A stretch of 64,000 bases of DNA from Octopus sinensis. Taxonomy: Eukaryota. This document shows, in pieces, positions 18,242 through 60,001 of this stretch (positions are counted from its first letter, which is position 1; every line of letters starts with the position of its first letter). The notes under the pieces were generated by a model that was not told the DNA's origin, ran no database searches, and saw only the letters and a program-made list of their open reading frames with translations. The translations under genes and the position numbers were made by a program. The DNA is taken from positions 74,462,001-74,526,000 of the forward strand of contig NC_043002.1 in the NCBI RefSeq assembly GCF_006345805.1, given 5' to 3'.

Positions 18242-19510
18242 CAGGAGTTGGACAAAATAATGGAAACATCTAGCATCATAGCATCATAATTTTGAAATAT
18301 CTATAAAACAGTCAAAAGCGTGTTTGTTTTTATGTTTTTATTTATTATTAGTGTTGCTTAATATGTTTTGCTAAAATTGCTATTTCTTTTCAGATATCAT
18401 CTGAGAAAGGTAATTAAAATTCATTAAAATGACAGATCTGTCGGACTTTCAAAGAGGTCAAATTGTTGGTGCTCGTATGGCAGGCGCTAGCGTAACGAGA
18501 ACAGCCAAAATGTTTGGTGTATCAAGAAGTACTGTCTCGAAAGTAATGACAGCCTTTGAGAAAGAGGGAAAAACCTGCTCGTCGAAACAAAACTCTGGAA
18601 GTAAACCAAAGCTTTCAGATAGGGACTGTCGGATTCTTACGCGAATTGTTAGAAAGGATCGCAAAATTACAGCTCCCAAAGTTACTGCAGAGCTTAATGA
18701 CCACCTCGACAACCCAGTTTTCACAAAAACTGTTCGCTGGGAGCTGCACCAAACCGGATTTCACGGGAGGGCTGCAATCAGAAAACCACTACTTTCAAAA
18801 TCAAACACTGCAAAGTGTTTAGAATGGAGTAAACACCTACAGAATTGGTCTCTAGAGCAGTGAAGAATGTAATTTTCTCGGAGAGTCATCCTTTACCTTA
18901 TTTCCGACCACCGACCGAGTATACGTGTGGAGACAGCCAAAAGAAGCATTTGACCCAGACTACCTTCTACCAACTGTTAAACATGGAGGAAGATCTGTGA
19001 TGATCTGCGGGGCTAAATCTTGGAAATCCGCCGACCCAATGGTTTCCATTCATGGCAGAATTAATAGTAAAGACTATTTAAGCATTTTATCTGATCAAAT
19101 TCATCCTATGGTTGTGGAACTGTTTCCAGAGGGAAACTCAATCTTTCAGGATGATAATGCACCAATTCACACAGCTAAAATTGCTACTGAATGGCACGAG
19201 GAACATTCCTGTGAAATTAAACATCTTATCTGGCCACAACAGTCCCCAGATCTCAATATTATTGAATATTTATGGTGCATTTTAGAAAAACAAGTAAGGA
19301 GTCGATATCCTCCACCATCATCACTACAAGAACAGGAGACTGTTTCAGCTGAAGAATGGACAAATCTTCCTTTGGAAACAATTCAAACTTTGTACGAGTC
19401 CATACCTCGTAGAATTCATGCTGTAATTACTGCCAAAGGCGGTCCTACACTATATTAAAATAAATTTGTTTGAAATTTTTAGGTGTTTCCATTATTTTGT
19501 CCAACCTCTG
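18242..19510 (+). mobile_element. Full-length Tc1 DNA transposon
   Basis: TIRs caggagttggacaaaataatggaaaca / tgtttccattattttgtccaacctctg, flanked by TA on both sides. Confidence 0.95.
18429..19458 (+). pseudogene. Tc1 (DD34E) transposase with a stop and frameshift near 18863-18885
   Basis: MTDLSDFQRGQIVGAR..., TVKHGG, FQDDNAPIH, WPQQSPDLNIIE. Confidence 0.93.
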
Positions 19511-27981: not shown

Positions 27982-29273
27982 CGAGGTGCGTTCATTAAGT
28001 AATGCCCCTGACCCACTTCCCATAGCAGTAGAGCAACGAAACTTGGCACAGTTATTAGTCTTTTTCTACATAGGAACCACCCATAGTTACGCATTTCTCC
28101 CATCGTTTGGTGCAGCTCTGGAAATCGTTTTTGTAGAAGACCCCAGCTTGGTCCTCCAATCACGACGTGACTTCAGAAATCAAGGCTGCATCATCTGCGA
28201 AACGCTTTCCTTTCAAAAACAACTTCAGGGGGAAGAGGTGAAAATCAGAGGGTCCAAGGTCAGGAGAGTAGGGAGGATGGAGGAGGAGTTCATAGCCGCA
28301 CGCCTGTGCTTCTGATCTGGTGACACGCGAGTTGTGGACCGGAGCGTTGTCCTACAGGAGGAGGATGCCTTTGCTGATCTTGCCCCGCCTCTTGATTTTG
28401 ATAGCTTCTCTTAATTTCCTCAAAAGTGAAGCATAATAGGCTCCTGTAATTATGATAACCCTTTGCCAGGAAATCTGTCATCACTACTCCGTCCTGGTCC
28501 CAGAAGCCTGTGAGCGTGACCTTGCCAGCGGAGGGCTGCACCCTTGCCTTCTTTGGAGGAGGTGAGTCACGGTGCTTCCACTGCATTGACTGGGCTTTGG
28601 TCTCTGGATCATAGTGATGGACCCAGGTTTCATCCTGTGTAATCAGTCTTTTGAAAAACTTTGACTCATCTTCCTGGCACATCTCCAAATTCATCCTCGA
28701 GCACTCGAAGCGTTCTTGCTTCTGGAAAGGTGTAAGCAACCTGGGAATCCATCTGGCAGACACCTTTTGCATATGCAAATCGCCATGAATGATAGTTTCC
28801 ACTAAACCCGGTACTAATCTTGACCTCATGGGCTATTTGGCGAATAGTTATGCGTCGATCTTCCAAAATGGCAGCCTCAACTTGACAGACAGATGCCTCA
28901 TCAATGGCAGAAGGGGGGCGACCAGATCTGGGAGCTGTTTCCACAGAGTTCCGACAATGTTTGAATTCACAGTGCCACCGTTTTACAAGGTCATATGATG
29001 GGGCATCATCACCATAAGTTACTTTCATTTCATCAAAAGTCTCCCGTAGTGTGCGTCCTTTCAAATACAAAACCCGGATCACTGCTCGACACTCAACAGG
29101 CTCCATTTCACACTTGACTCAGTTCAAACACTTGTAAATCAGAAACCACAATTAGTTCAGAGCTGTAATTTTCCACTTAATCTATAGAGATATAAATAAT
29201 TGCACATGCAAAATTTCAGCTAGATCAAACAAATACAAGTGGGTCAGAGGCATTACTTATTGAACATCCCTCG
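27982..29273 (-). mobile_element. Full-length mariner DNA transposon
   Basis: TIRs cgaggtgcgttcattaagtaatgcccctgacccac / gtgggtcagaggcattacttattgaacatccctcg with TA TSD. Confidence 0.95.
28055..29106 (-). pseudogene. Mariner (DD34D) transposase, frameshifted
   Basis: WIPRLL, ITQDETWVHHYDPETK, PPYSPDLGPSDFHLF. Confidence 0.93.
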
Positions 29274-39500: not shown

Positions 39501-40136
39501 ACGAAAATACAAAATTTACCACTTTTATGCTGAAAGAAATTACGTAAGAGCTTCTGAGTAAACAACATTCTTTGTTTTCTGGTTTGGAGCATAGACAAAT
39601 AGGTCTTGCAAACTACCTACCCTGGAGCAACCAACATAAAGTTGACCACGAGAAAAGCAAGCCAGTAGATTTCAATGTCTGATCTTGAGCTTTATTAATA
39701 GATATTGCAAAGCAAAGTCACACTGGAAATTGTGTTCGTTTGATCTCAAATGGCATGTCTGTTGGTTTGATTGGAATTCTTGGAATGAAAACCTCTTCTC
39801 CCGCAACACATCCAGTGATGATGGTAGCTTCTGTCATTGTACCATTGCATAATTTAGGAGGATCTAACTTTCTTAGAAGCAGTATTGGGACTCCTACCTT
39901 CAGAAAAGGTTTATGTGGAGGTGTTCCAGGTGGATCAAGGCAACTAGGGAATTCTGTTGGGTAATGGACAGCTTCATTTTCATCAAGGACTGAATCAACT
40001 GATTTGTACTTCTTAATGACTGTTGGAATCTTATTCATTAATTCATAGTTAATCCTTGCTACTGTATCACTTTTTGGAGCAAGAGTTTCCAGAAAAGAAA
40101 GAAACATTATAAAATGCTTATGTAATATTGTATTAT

Positions 40137-40598
40137 TTACTCTCTCTTTTACTCTTTTACTTGTTTCGGTCATGTGACTGTGGCCATGCTGGAGCACTGC
40201 CTTTTGTCGAGGAAATCGACCCCAGGACTTATTATTTGTAAGCCTAGTACTTATTGTATCGGTCTGTTTTGCCGAACCGCTAAGTTACGGGGACGTAAAC
40301 ACACCAGCATCGGTTGTCAAGCGATGTTGGGGGGACAAACACAGACACACAAACATATACACACACGTACATATACATAAATATATATACAGATACATAC
40401 ATATATACATATATATACATATACATACATATATACGACGGGCTTCTTTCAGTTTCCGTCTACCAAATCCACTCATAAGGCTTTGGTCGGCCCGAGGCTA
40501 TAGTAGAAGATACTTGCCCAAGGTGCCACGCAGTGGGACTGAACCCAGAGCCATGTGGTTGGTAAGCAAGCTACTTACCACACAGCCACTCCTACGCC
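40137..40598 (-). mobile_element. Family B SINE inserted in the Helitron
   Basis: Reverse complement of 25968-26369. Confidence 0.9.
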
Positions 40599-42854: not shown

Positions 42855-43509
<655 letters not shown>

Positions 43510-43791
43510 TGCGTGCGTGCGTGCGTATTCTTAAATATATCTCTTTAGATTTTTGCAATTAAATACTATTAGGAATTCAATAAAAAAATTAAGTTATTTT
43601 ATGTATTGTAGAAGTACAACCAATTTACCGCCGATAAATTTTAATAACAAGATCATATATAAACCTCCAAGAGCCATGTGGACCTTGGTTGAGAACAACT
43701 GGTCTAAAACGAAGTTAAATTTCAAAAGAAATTAAGCAAAACAAATCATAGTGTTATCTTTGAAAAGTCTAAAGACAAGAATGCATGAGAA

Positions 43792-44384
43792 CAGTGATTC
43801 CCAACGTAGGGCATATGCCCCATCGGTGGTACTTGGGAAAATTCTGATGGGGAGTGGAGTCCAAAATTTTCTTTCTTTTTCCTCGGTGGAACATGGAATT
43901 GTGAAAATCTTTTTTTCACAGCAAACATACCACACCTATACTGAGCCTAGCCAAACGAATCCTTCCATCCAAGCGTATTGTGTGAAGACCGCCTGCTACA
44001 GTATAGCGCTATTCTAATTTCCATTGAAGTAAAGTATGTTTGCTGTAGTGAGCCAAACGGCTAGCTTCAGAACCTATTCTTTCGAACAAATCGTTGACAA
44101 AACTGTTCATGATGGACATAGCTTTGCTGGAAATACCATTGTCAGGGTGGACTTGCTTCATTACTTTGTAGATGTAGATGGAATAACTTTCCTTTCTCTT
44201 CCTCTTACATTTCTTGTCCCCAGCAGGGCGAGAGGCCTTAGCCTTGGAAGCCTTCTTGGCTCTTAATATTTAAGAAATATTAAAAATAAAGTGGGGTTTT
44301 TTTCTAACCACCAGTCGAACATATATTTTTCAGGAAAGTTATAGTGGAGCTTGGAGTAGGGGAAATAGTTTGGGAAAAACACTG
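43792..44384. mobile_element. Non-autonomous hAT (Charlie-like) element containing a histone H2B fragment
   Basis: Termini cagtgattcccaa / ttgggaaaaacactg; 8-bp flanks catgagaa / cattagaa (7 of 8 identical). Confidence 0.75.
44036..44260 (-). pseudogene. H2B: Histone H2B fragment, truncated at both ends
   Basis: [74 protein letters not shown]; no ATG and no C-terminal part. Confidence 0.95.
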
Positions 44385-45399
44385 CATTAGAAAATATAAA
44401 TGTAGATGCACTCTGGTTGGAAAAATTCTTGGCTGAGCACAGGCAGATTATATTTGTTTCTCGTATTAGTGCCTAACAAGACCTGGTATATTTTCAGTTT
44501 TACAAAATTTGGGGAGAAATTGAGAATTACCATAAACACCGACAAAATAAACCCAACACGAGTCATGGCACAGTGCCTGGGTTAACAATTCTGCCAACCC
44601 ACCACCTTCATTGTGAATAAAGTAATGACGATTTCTTTTGACTAAAATACAAAGCCAGCATTTGAAAAGCAAGAAAGATGCCAAATCGATTAAACAGATT
44701 CCTGACCAAATATAATAGGTCAGGCATGGGTAAACTTTTTCGAAAAACAGACCGTATGAGAGAAATTGGCACATCACCAGACGGGCCGCACTAAAAAACA
44801 ATTCAAGGAATTTTTTCTTTGCTGTAACATTCAGAAAGTCCCGCGAGCCGCAATTTGTCCATGGCTGATACGGATCCTTAGTACCAATCCCTTCTACTTT
44901 TATTTTTATTTTTTTGTTTATTTATTTTATTCTTCTTTAGTCAAACCTGCTACGATTTGAACTCGGAATGTTAAGAGGTGAAACTCAATACTGAATTTCT
45001 TTTTTTTTGTTTTGTTTATTTGTTTGTTTGTTTGTTTCTACATCGATCACTGTGCAATTTCTGCCAACTCGTCAACCAACCCTGTGAACAACTGATGAAA
45101 TAATAAAATACCCGAGAAACAAAGCATTACCATGGCAACAACATCCTGAAAGATAAGATGAAGTGTGTGCGTGTGTGTGTGTGAGTGTTTTTCGTTGTAA
45201 GTGTTTTCCTAAATCTTTCTTTAAAGTCAAAGAGAAAGAAAAGAATGTCCTCTACACCGCTTACTGTTTCTTCCTTTTCCTTTTCCTTTCCCTCTACCTG
45301 CAGACCAAGACGTTAACAGATGTAATTGGTTCGATATTAGATAACCGTACTAATTGAGGCGATGTTGGCGGGGAGAACAGTGACCGGATAATGGAGACG

Positions 45400-58449: not shown

Positions 58450-60001
58450 AACAAATAAATTGAAGGTCTTAATTGAAAGAGTTTCTCAAACTAGTAGCAC
58501 AATTAAAATGTTCTAATATAGCAAAAGGTCATGAACGATTGCAGATTTCTGAAACTAGGTCTTCATCACAGAAAGCGCGATTGACTTTTAGAAATAATTG
58601 CATTTCTAAATTCATTGGTGAAAATCATTAAATACATAACCTGCTGAGCTGAAGAAATGTTCCAAGATGTTGACGTTGATGAGAAAAATCTACAGTTCAG
58701 ATATTGCTGAGGTGAAATTTTATCTTTTTTGTGATTTTTGAAACAAATTGAGGCAAAATCATCATCTTCTACAGGTAAATCAGACTGTTGTGACGTGTCC
58801 GTCACCACTTTAACCACTTCATCCGCAGTTAGCTCTGCTTCTGCATGTTGTAAAATTTTCACAGCTCCAATTTCAAAATCTGGGCTATGCACAATGGCAG
58901 CTTATAGAAGCAAATATTTTCTAAACTCTTCGTAAGGATACAATGCGAGAATTTCGTCAAAAAGAATTCGAGCATTTCCCAAATCTATTTCTGTGCTTTG
59001 CAAGGCAACTATTACTGAGCGTAACTTTCCTAAATTGTCTTTTAGAGTGTGCAGATCATTATGATCGCGTGGAGGAGATAATCAACCAGCTTTGGATCGC
59101 TTTGAAAAGAGTGTAAAAACGGCTTGAGTTGGATGTCATAAGTACTGGACCAACGGGTTTTACTTCTTTGTATAGGTTGCAAAGACGTTTTCCCCTGAGT
59201 TTACCCGTAAGTTTTAATGATTTTAACTTGCCCATCAACATATTAATTTTATCAAGCAGAAGTTCTTGCTTCTCGAGATAAGTAGAAACAGCTAGATTGA
59301 ATTTATGAGAGGCACACCCAATCAATGATACTCTACACAAATTCGCTATAGATTTGTTCACTTCAGTATTATCTCCGGTAATAGCTACATTTTCTAAATT
59401 TTTGTTATAGACACTTAACACATACTCTATAAATTCGACATAATAAGAAGTAGTGATTGATTTTTCACTTACCATTGGCGAAAATGCCAGCAAAACAGTA
59501 CAATAGTAATTTTGATATTTGCGCGAATAAGATGCAAAAAGTCCAATGAAATGCGTCGAACCCTTAGTCCAATCGTCGATTACCAACGAAAATTTACTTG
59601 GAAGTTCATCAGATATTTTCTTTCCGCTTCTTGAGTAAGTTTCTCCATGTATTTCTTTAAGATCACATTTGTCATACTTCCCAAGTTCGTGTACTTACGA
59701 GTCAGTGGGTCTTCACTAAAGGAAAACGGTTTTAAACCAACACATACCCACTCAATCCAACCATAAGTATTTATAGCCGAGCGACTGACCAAACTACTTC
59801 TTGGTGAAAGAAAACTCGATAAAGATGGTTGTCCAGTTGTTTGTGTAGTAGAATACTCTGGATGCTGGTCTTTTATATGATTCATAAGATTTGTGCATCC
59901 AGTTCCTTTCTTCTGGGTCAACTTTTTTCCACACTTGTATTTCTATACATGTTCCCTGTCTGTTTGGCTAAAATATTTTCTGATGATTTGCTCGTTTTCA
60001 T
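58450..60001 (-). pseudogene. hAT-like transposase, multiply frameshifted
   Basis: BED-like KCGKKLTQKKGTGCTNLMNHIKDQH, IDDWT, ITGDN, IGCASHKFNLAV and a dimerisation-domain remnant. Confidence 0.8.

What the first reader, a model, noticed from the sequence alone, without database searches (positions are those of the whole stretch)
43792..44384. hAT-type element carrying a histone H2B coding fragment (candidate Pack-hAT)
Seen: imperfect CAGTG..TTCCCAA inverted termini and an 8-bp near-duplication (catgagaa/cattagaa) enclose 75 stop-free codons of H2B on the minus strand. The supplied ORF track missed it because it has no ATG. The fragment stops after HYSK with no poly(A) and no histone stem-loop. 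Known: hAT elements make 8-bp TSDs, and Pack-type DNA transposons that capture gene pieces are well described in plants and less so in animals. Inference: this element captured an H2B piece and may spread it, possibly giving antisense or small RNAs against histone mRNA or inflating histone gene counts.
Basis: partly seen in the sequence, partly recalled or inferred. Interest (0 to 1): 0.75.

Follow-up and report, generated by a model that had tools for sequence, protein, structure and literature searches.

The report
Histone scrap patched into dead transposon
A single old copy of a small DNA transposon holds a 225-base scrap of a histone H2B gene that was found in no other copy of the family, most likely patched in later during repair of a DNA break, which makes it an ordinary example of a known kind of gene-fragment capture rather than a mobile histone-carrying element.

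Summary
43792-44384 is a copy of a ~369-bp Charlie-like hAT element family (8-bp target duplication 7/8 here). It holds 225 bp of H2B coding DNA (44038-44262, minus strand), 92% like intact genes on other contigs. No second H2B-bearing copy was found: 0 of 58 other family loci carry H2B, 0 of 37 other H2B loci have element arms, and neither junction recurs. The piece looks younger than the element: 7 amino-acid changes against about 19 expected at the family's age (P=0.002), though raw distance to today's genes does not separate the ages. It has no poly(A) and no duplication of its own. A perfect 13-bp inverted repeat spans the left junction (2 of 6000 simulated insertions reach this). It suggests that the broken end folded back, copied 9 bases of the element, and so primed on an H2B template. 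This fits single-copy animal Pack-TIRs formed without transposition (Tan 2021), which include a human Charlie1b holding H2B-locus DNA. Spread and small-RNA function are unsupported. An empty site in relatives could not be recovered. The scan noted a similar ASF1 fragment beside a hAT end in another genome.

The parts
43784..43791 (+). Left copy of the 8-bp target-site duplication (catgagaa)
   Evidence: 7/8 to the right copy
43792..44037 (+). Left arm of a non-autonomous Charlie-like hAT element (terminal repeat about 43792-43805); lacks about 14-16 bp of family sequence just before the junction, near 44019-44022
   Evidence: 88% to the family majority over 1-225; 76-82% to individual copies; deletion seen in alignments
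43918..43930 (+). 13-bp stretch of normal element sequence that is the exact reverse complement of the left junction; likely template of a fold-back step
   Evidence: pair I15; exact in 18 of 37 other copies examined
44034..44046 (+). Left junction: 4 element bases plus 9 bases at the H2B end; includes the change at 44043 (Asn84 to Ser) that none of 24 intact genes has
44038..44262 (-). 225-bp H2B coding fragment (CDS nt 32-256; codons 11-86), cut at both ends, no start codon, no 3' stem-loop, no poly(A), no indels
   Evidence: 17 differences to the nearest intact gene, 8 not seen in any of 24
44263..44384 (+). Right junction (2-3 ambiguous bases) and right arm of the hAT element; terminal repeat about 44369-44384 with a 2-base A-run expansion
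   Evidence: 82% to the family majority
44385..44392 (+). Right copy of the 8-bp target-site duplication (cattagaa)

Best explanation
This is a lone copy of a small hAT element family that holds an H2B fragment, which was likely patched in long after the element had inserted, during repair of a break in its AT-rich middle and without any transposition. SHOWN: element identity, single copy among what was scored, exact breakpoints, no poly(A), no duplication around the piece, and a perfect 13-bp inverted repeat across the left junction. INFERRED steps: (1) a double-strand break in the middle of the already resident element; (2) the left 3' end folded back on its own strand, paired by 4-5 bases about 105 nt upstream and was extended by 9 bases; (3) those 9 new bases match H2B sequence at 8 of 9 positions and primed synthesis on an H2B sense-strand template, which would explain the Asn84-to-Ser change as a copied base, not a later mutation; (4) synthesis ran 225 nt toward the gene's 5' end and was joined to the right end with little or no homology; (5) the piece has since decayed like neutral DNA and has no function. 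The template could be H2B mRNA (the polarity fits) or DNA; about even odds, because the gene has no introns.
For: Single copy. Younger than the element: arms differ from the subfamily majority at 33/301 non-CpG sites away from the junction (11%, like the other 15 copies, 7-18%); the piece has 8/225 changes absent from 24 intact genes (Fisher p=0.0016); 7 amino-acid differences against 18.7 expected under the family's own substitution spectrum (Poisson P=0.0018); an H2B gene contig of another organism (run X13) differs at only 6/157 sites (p=0.008 against the arms). No close sister element: best relatives are 82% alike. Junction repeat: 13 bp observed; 2 of 6000 simulated insertions reach 13 or more at either junction, and none of 4620 breakpoint choices at the real site exceeds 10; the upstream arm is ordinary family sequence. 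An 8-bp inner stem shortens the loop in both the best and the centroid fold. Private changes are 5 non-synonymous to 3 synonymous against 178:44 sites, no clear sign of constraint. Small internal gap in the middle of the element, as in Tan et al. (PMC8277862, section 8).
Against: Raw DNA distance does not separate the ages: 17/225 to the nearest gene (p=0.23) and 22/225 to the majority gene (p=0.77). I attribute this to synonymous drift among genes (haplotypes differ at 11.3/225 on average), and the 'private' count is biased low. The direct test, an orthologous element without H2B, was not obtained. The fold-back template lies about 105 nt from the break, while the Drosophila SD-MMEJ paper places such structures within about 30 nt (PMC5728401 passages). 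The unextended strand folds no better than shuffles (z=-0.07), and its 3' end pairs at the proposed site with only about 2% probability (0.3% for the family majority). The repeat was noticed first and tested afterwards. The right junction shows no significant repeat (6 bp). The donor genes found lie on other contigs, whereas 59.8% of Tan's cases are on the same chromosome. Genome searches score only the best candidates.
Confidence: 0.7

Rival explanations
1. Retro-insertion by a LINE-type reverse transcriptase: an H2B mRNA, which has no poly(A) tail to prime on, was primed internally at a nick in the AT-rich middle of the resident element and copied part-way.
For: Polarity fits copying of the sense strand from its 3' part toward the 5' end, stopping 31 nt short of the ATG. 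Other family copies carry repeat insertions in the same AT-rich zone (L038, L047, L051, L078). Near full-length decayed H2B copies are scattered in the genome.
Against: No duplication around the piece (longest 3 bp), no A-tail, cut at both ends; a 14-16 bp loss beside the junction; the junction repeat copied from the element itself is not expected of simple target-primed reverse transcription (my knowledge, not tested).
Confidence: 0.13
2. Capture tied to transposition: the piece was taken up by abortive gap repair or template switching while the family was active, and this is the only copy that survived.
For: Both termini and the 8-bp duplication enclose the piece; the family has several internal variants of about 220-590 bp; distance to present-day genes (7.6-9.8%) is not significantly below the arms' 11%.
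Against: Protein-level clock and the X13 gene contig put the piece at about a third of the element's age; the gap is small and central; no sister copy.
Confidence: 0.09
3. One reading: a mobile Pack-hAT that spreads an H2B piece and yields antisense or small RNAs against histone mRNA.
For: The piece shares an exact run of 58 nt with an intact gene, enough in principle for RNA cross-talk; the composite is shared with organism D.
Against: 0 of 58 family loci and 0 of 37 H2B loci show a second composite; junctions unique; termini and duplication have decayed; no transposase with these ends in 30 hAT-domain loci (limited to 1.5 kb each side).
Confidence: 0.03

Closest known systems
Single-copy animal Pack-TIRs formed by transposition-independent gap filling (Tan et al. 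2021, PMC8277862), including a human Charlie1b hAT element holding a 184-bp piece of the H2BC15 locus (Supplementary Data 4 row)
   Same: Short, decayed TIR element; host piece of more than 100 bp and over 90% identity between two arms of one element; single copy; small, central gap; capture after insertion (91 of 97 primate cases had the bare element in outgroups).
   Different: Coding, antisense-oriented H2B piece from an apparently unlinked donor rather than nearby DNA; left junction has a templated fold-back step rather than plain 1-2 bp microhomology; an invertebrate group not named in that paper's main text (0 hits for 'octopus' or 'mollus').
Non-autonomous Charlie-related hAT elements such as hAT-HT3N1_AC of Anolis (PMC3014272, Table 1: 326 bp, terminal repeat CAGTGRTTCCCAAA, target NTCTAGAN)
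   Same: Near-identical terminal motif, similar size, 8-bp duplication with the same target preference across 40 copies.
   Different: Only ends and target were compared; internal homology and a shared transposase were not tested, so no family identity is claimed.
Synthesis-dependent microhomology-mediated end joining, snap-back type (PMC5728401), and break repair by capture of mRNA or genomic pieces (PMC4516963; Pol theta reverse transcription, PMC8195485 abstract)
   Same: Inverted primer repeat, short templated extension that creates new microhomology; captured piece cut at both ends, no duplication, mismatch-tolerant microhomology at one end.
   Different: Template about 105 nt from the break, not within 30 nt; the new microhomology pairs with a foreign template, not the other break end; enzyme and template type cannot be read from sequence.
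Multicopy Pack elements (Pack-hAT-N8_XT of frog, Ssk-FB4 of Drosophila; plant Pack-MULEs)
   Same: Gene piece between TIRs with a target duplication.
   Different: No second copy, hence no evidence of transposition after capture.

Membership tests
Non-autonomous hAT (Charlie-like) element | 8-bp target-site duplication | tested here: met
   7/8 here; 18 of 40 other copies with both ends found have 7/8 or 8/8 (some low scores reflect misplaced ends)
Non-autonomous hAT (Charlie-like) element | Target preference NTCTAGAN | tested here: met
   Family positions 2-7 most often T,C,T,A,G,A over 80 duplication halves; motif from PMC3014272 and PMC2836564 passages. This copy fits only partly.
Non-autonomous hAT (Charlie-like) element | Short terminal inverted repeats starting YARNG, recurring as ends of dispersed copies | tested here: met
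   Family ends 13/14 complementary; dispersed copies end at the same points
Non-autonomous hAT (Charlie-like) element | Autonomous partner with hAT transposase and the same ends | tested here: inconclusive
   30 of 150 scored hAT-domain loci fetched (1.5 kb each side); one weak 37-bp hit, E=0.008
Single-copy Pack-TIR (Tan et al. 2021) | Internal host piece of 100-5000 bp between both ends of one TIR element, 90% or more like its parent | tested here: met
   225 bp, 92%
Single-copy Pack-TIR (Tan et al. 2021) | Parent not flanked by the same element (not a segmental duplication) | tested here: met
   0 of 37 H2B loci have element arms; two show only a 19-bp low-complexity hit about 800 bp away
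Single-copy Pack-TIR (Tan et al. 2021) | Not a retroduplicate; single unambiguous parent (filters of that paper's pipeline) | tested here: inconclusive
   H2B has no introns, so RNA or DNA origin cannot be told; at least 7 loci tie as best hit, so the pipeline would have dropped this case
Single-copy Pack-TIR (Tan et al. 2021) | Bare element at the orthologous site of outgroups | tested here: inconclusive
   No orthologous element recovered in organisms E and F; organism D has the composite
Multicopy, mobile Pack element | Two or more copies with the same breakpoints and independent duplications | tested here: not met
   (searches score best candidates only)
Processed pseudogene (LINE-made) | Intact mRNA 3' end or A-tail, and a duplication of its own | tested here: not met
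   Ends at codon 86 of 125; longest flanking direct repeat 3 bp
SD-MMEJ snap-back junction | Junction is part of a longer inverted repeat made of a primer repeat plus templated bases | tested here: met
   13 bp, 2 of 6000 simulated insertions
SD-MMEJ snap-back junction | Template within about 30 nt of the break | tested here: not met
   103 nt between the arms; 30-nt range from PMC5728401
SD-MMEJ snap-back junction | Dependence on polymerase theta | not testable with these tools
   ancient event; sequence only

The most novel reading that the evidence does not exclude
The junction is a natural fossil of RNA-templated break repair in an invertebrate germline: a repair polymerase made its own 9-base primer by folding back on the transposon, then reverse-transcribed an abundant, tail-less histone mRNA into the break.
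Probability: 0.3. Interest if true: 0.45.

Novelty: new member of a known kind. Interest (0 to 1): 0.2.

Why it matters
As it stands it matters little: one more single-copy gene scrap inside a dead DNA transposon, a kind catalogued 370 times in 100 animal genomes (PMC8277862). It is a useful caution that a gene piece between transposon ends is not evidence that the transposon moved it. The one feature of some value is the left junction, which reads as a two-step template switch. If many such junctions with histone or other abundant-mRNA pieces showed the same polarity, they would give a genome-scale test of RNA-templated break repair in an animal germline.

Tried and rejected
Second composite copy: four searches (whole element, both junctions, junction pattern) found none; the one 2-mismatch pattern hit (L152) is neither element nor H2B. 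Family as a habitual gene carrier: of 30 other copies with a middle of 60 bp or more, most middles are shared internal element sequence or repeats seen in 3 or more loci; the 140-bp stretch in L051 that looked unique is another repeat (42 matches); unique-looking stretches in L033 (285 bp) and L072 (541 bp) were not followed. Empty site in relatives: 8 of 24 listed runs were laid. In organisms E and F (5 runs) flank homology stops at 44451 with 23-51 unlike letters beyond and there is no cover next to the element; this proves nothing either way. X2 reaches only 30 letters into H2B, one short of the tool's 31-letter rule for bridging; X7 gave flanks only. Expression: no RNA holder listed; no RNA run was laid. 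Selection on the reading frame: rejected as unnecessary. Hairpin or palindrome at the right junction: a short AT-rich hairpin exists (pair I6) but it does not span the junction significantly (6 bp). Host gene around the site: 60 of 72 stop-free stretches of 110 codons or more were scanned; only transposon-type domains and a few weak sub-threshold hits; short exons would be missed. Paper searches for a histone-capturing hAT, RNA-templated histone insertions and cephalopod gene capture (8 of 45 listed, none mentioning cephalopods) gave no direct precedent other than Tan et al.; the library lacks most subscription journals. One paper on human templated insertions was not held.

Full report
Observation. 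The sequence shows the left terminus at 43792, the right at 44384, and flanking 8-mers catgagaa and cattagaa. The minus strand reads as H2B (Pfam Histone E=3.7e-14; solved H2B chains). The window lies on contig C6 of a 2.72-Gb genome; from size and repeat style I guess an octopus-type genome, which no call tested.

What the element is. The left arm has 331 first-look candidates and the right arm 114, 40 scored each, 76-82% alike. Copies end at the same termini. The commonest short form is about 369 bp, and longer or shorter forms differ in the middle. In 40 other copies with both ends found, 18 have a 7/8 or 8/8 duplication and the target preference is NTCTAGAN. Published tables give this target for Charlie-related hATs, with a near-identical terminal repeat for Anolis hAT-HT3 elements (PMC3014272 and PMC2836564, passages). 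No transposase with these ends was found in 30 fetched of 150 scored hAT-domain loci. The closest relative of this copy is 82% alike, so it has no recent sister.

What the insert is. It is 225 bp (44038-44262), CDS nt 32-256, without indels. All 36 H2B-type hits of the whole-element search align within query 247-471 only. Of 29 fetched, 24 are intact 125-codon genes, mostly beside H2A. None of the listed hits is on C6. Relative to the family majority, the piece sits at one point of the AT-rich middle, with about 14-16 bp of element lost just left of it. It has no A-tail and no duplication longer than 3 bp.

Copy number. 0 of 58 other family loci contain H2B and 0 of 37 H2B loci have element arms. 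Junction queries had all candidates scored (29 of 29, 15 of 15) and none spans a junction. A 22-base junction pattern with 2 mismatches gave one other hit against two in the control, and it is unrelated. These searches give lower bounds, but a second composite should have ranked with the 48-bp H2B hits that were found.

Relative age. The arms differ from the subfamily majority at 33/301 non-CpG sites (11%), typical of the 15 other copies (7-18%). The insert has 8/225 changes absent from all 24 intact genes (p=0.0016), of which 5 are non-synonymous. Under the family's own substitution spectrum 18.7 amino-acid changes are expected at the family's age; 7 are seen against the majority protein (P=0.0018). 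An H2B contig of organism E differs from the insert at only 6/157 sites. Against this: distance to the nearest own gene (17/225) and to the majority gene (22/225) is not significantly below the arms (p=0.23 and 0.77). Gene haplotypes themselves differ at 11.3/225 on average, so these figures include drift in the genes. I conclude, by inference, that the insert is about a third as old as the element.

Other organisms. Run X8 (organism D) has one contig over 44165-44879 with 7 differences and 3 gaps, bridging the right junction, so the composite is shared and is no assembly artefact. X2 (organism B) matches 44233-44880 without differences but falls one letter short of the bridging rule. In organisms E and F, about 5% divergent in the flank for F, the site was not recovered. 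The decisive bare-element test is therefore open.

Junction anatomy. 44034-44046 is the exact reverse complement of 43918-43930, 103 nt away. The upstream arm is normal element sequence (exact in 18 of 37 copies; 17 extend the match by one more base). The junction arm is 4 element bases plus 9 bases that match the H2B gene at 8 of 9; the mismatch is the Asn84-to-Ser change that no intact gene has. Only 2 of 6000 simulated insertions give such a repeat of 13 or more at either junction, and none of 4620 breakpoint choices at the real site exceeds 10. The finished strand folds into this hairpin (z=-3.9). The unextended strand has an inner 8-bp stem but is not unusual overall (z=-0.07), and its end pairs at the site with about 2% probability. 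The test was made after the repeat was noticed. The right junction shows nothing significant.

Mechanism. Most likely a break in the resident element was repaired by fold-back priming, a 9-base extension, a switch to an H2B sense-strand template, copying of 225 nt and end joining. This works like snap-back SD-MMEJ (PMC5728401, passages), except that the template is further away than the 30 nt reported there and the new microhomology paired with a foreign molecule. Capture of mRNA and genomic pieces at breaks, cut at both ends and without duplications, is reported in mouse zygotes (PMC4516963, abstract and passages), and human Pol theta can copy RNA (PMC8195485, abstract only). Whether the template was RNA or DNA cannot be told for an intronless gene. 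The polarity fits mRNA, which shifts the odds only about twofold.

Comparison. Tan et al. (PMC8277862; abstract, sections 8 and 14 in full, passages, and a term search of 12 supplementary files) found 370 Pack-TIRs, only four of them multicopy. They explain the single copies by gap filling in dead elements, and list a human Charlie1b holding a piece of the H2BC15 locus. This finding is a new member of that kind; it fails the test for a mobile multicopy Pack element and for a processed pseudogene.

Verdict. Real, well defined, most likely inert. Interest 0.2; the RNA-templated reading (probability 0.3) would deserve about 0.45.

Noticed in passing
window 43000-43255: Inverted repeat with 60-nt arms, 90% complementary, 136 nt apart: looks like another miniature inverted-repeat element.
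   Followed up: no
window about 43580-43702 and about 44720-44870: Two further high-copy stretches (very deep contig cover) whose ends resemble hAT-type termini (resemblance recalled, not tested); the neighbourhood is dense in small DNA elements.
   Followed up: no
window 44451: In 5 of 5 runs of organisms E and F, flank homology stops at 44451 with 23-51 unlike letters beyond: a lineage-specific insertion or deletion next to the element.
   Followed up: partly
window 44019-44033: Beside the left junction about 14-16 bp of family sequence are missing and the remaining bases carry clustered changes; may belong to the same repair event; no template found by eye.
   Followed up: partly
window 18414-19458, 28290-29118, 39718-40284, 59580-59942: Tc1-type transposase pieces, mariner-type transposase pieces, a Pif1 helicase 2B domain and a weak BED finger.
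   Followed up: no
L145:997-1169 (G000:C2) and L025:1468-1765 (G000:C9): Other partial H2B copies outside this element family: one aligned only over CDS 157-329 (81%), one lacking the 3' end (87%). H2B scraps are scattered without hAT help.
   Followed up: partly
L038, L047, L051, L078: Other family copies carry repeat insertions in the same AT-rich middle zone: a hotspot for secondary insertions.
   Followed up: partly
L033:1136-1420 and L072 middle: 285-bp and 541-bp stretches inside family copies not seen in other fetched loci; possible further cargo or rarer repeats.
   Followed up: no
G000 C27, C9, C30 (L005-L030): Intact H2B genes occur as divergent H2A-H2B pairs repeated every 8-19 kb in several clusters; 11 haplotypes over the 225-bp stretch among 24 genes.
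   Followed up: no
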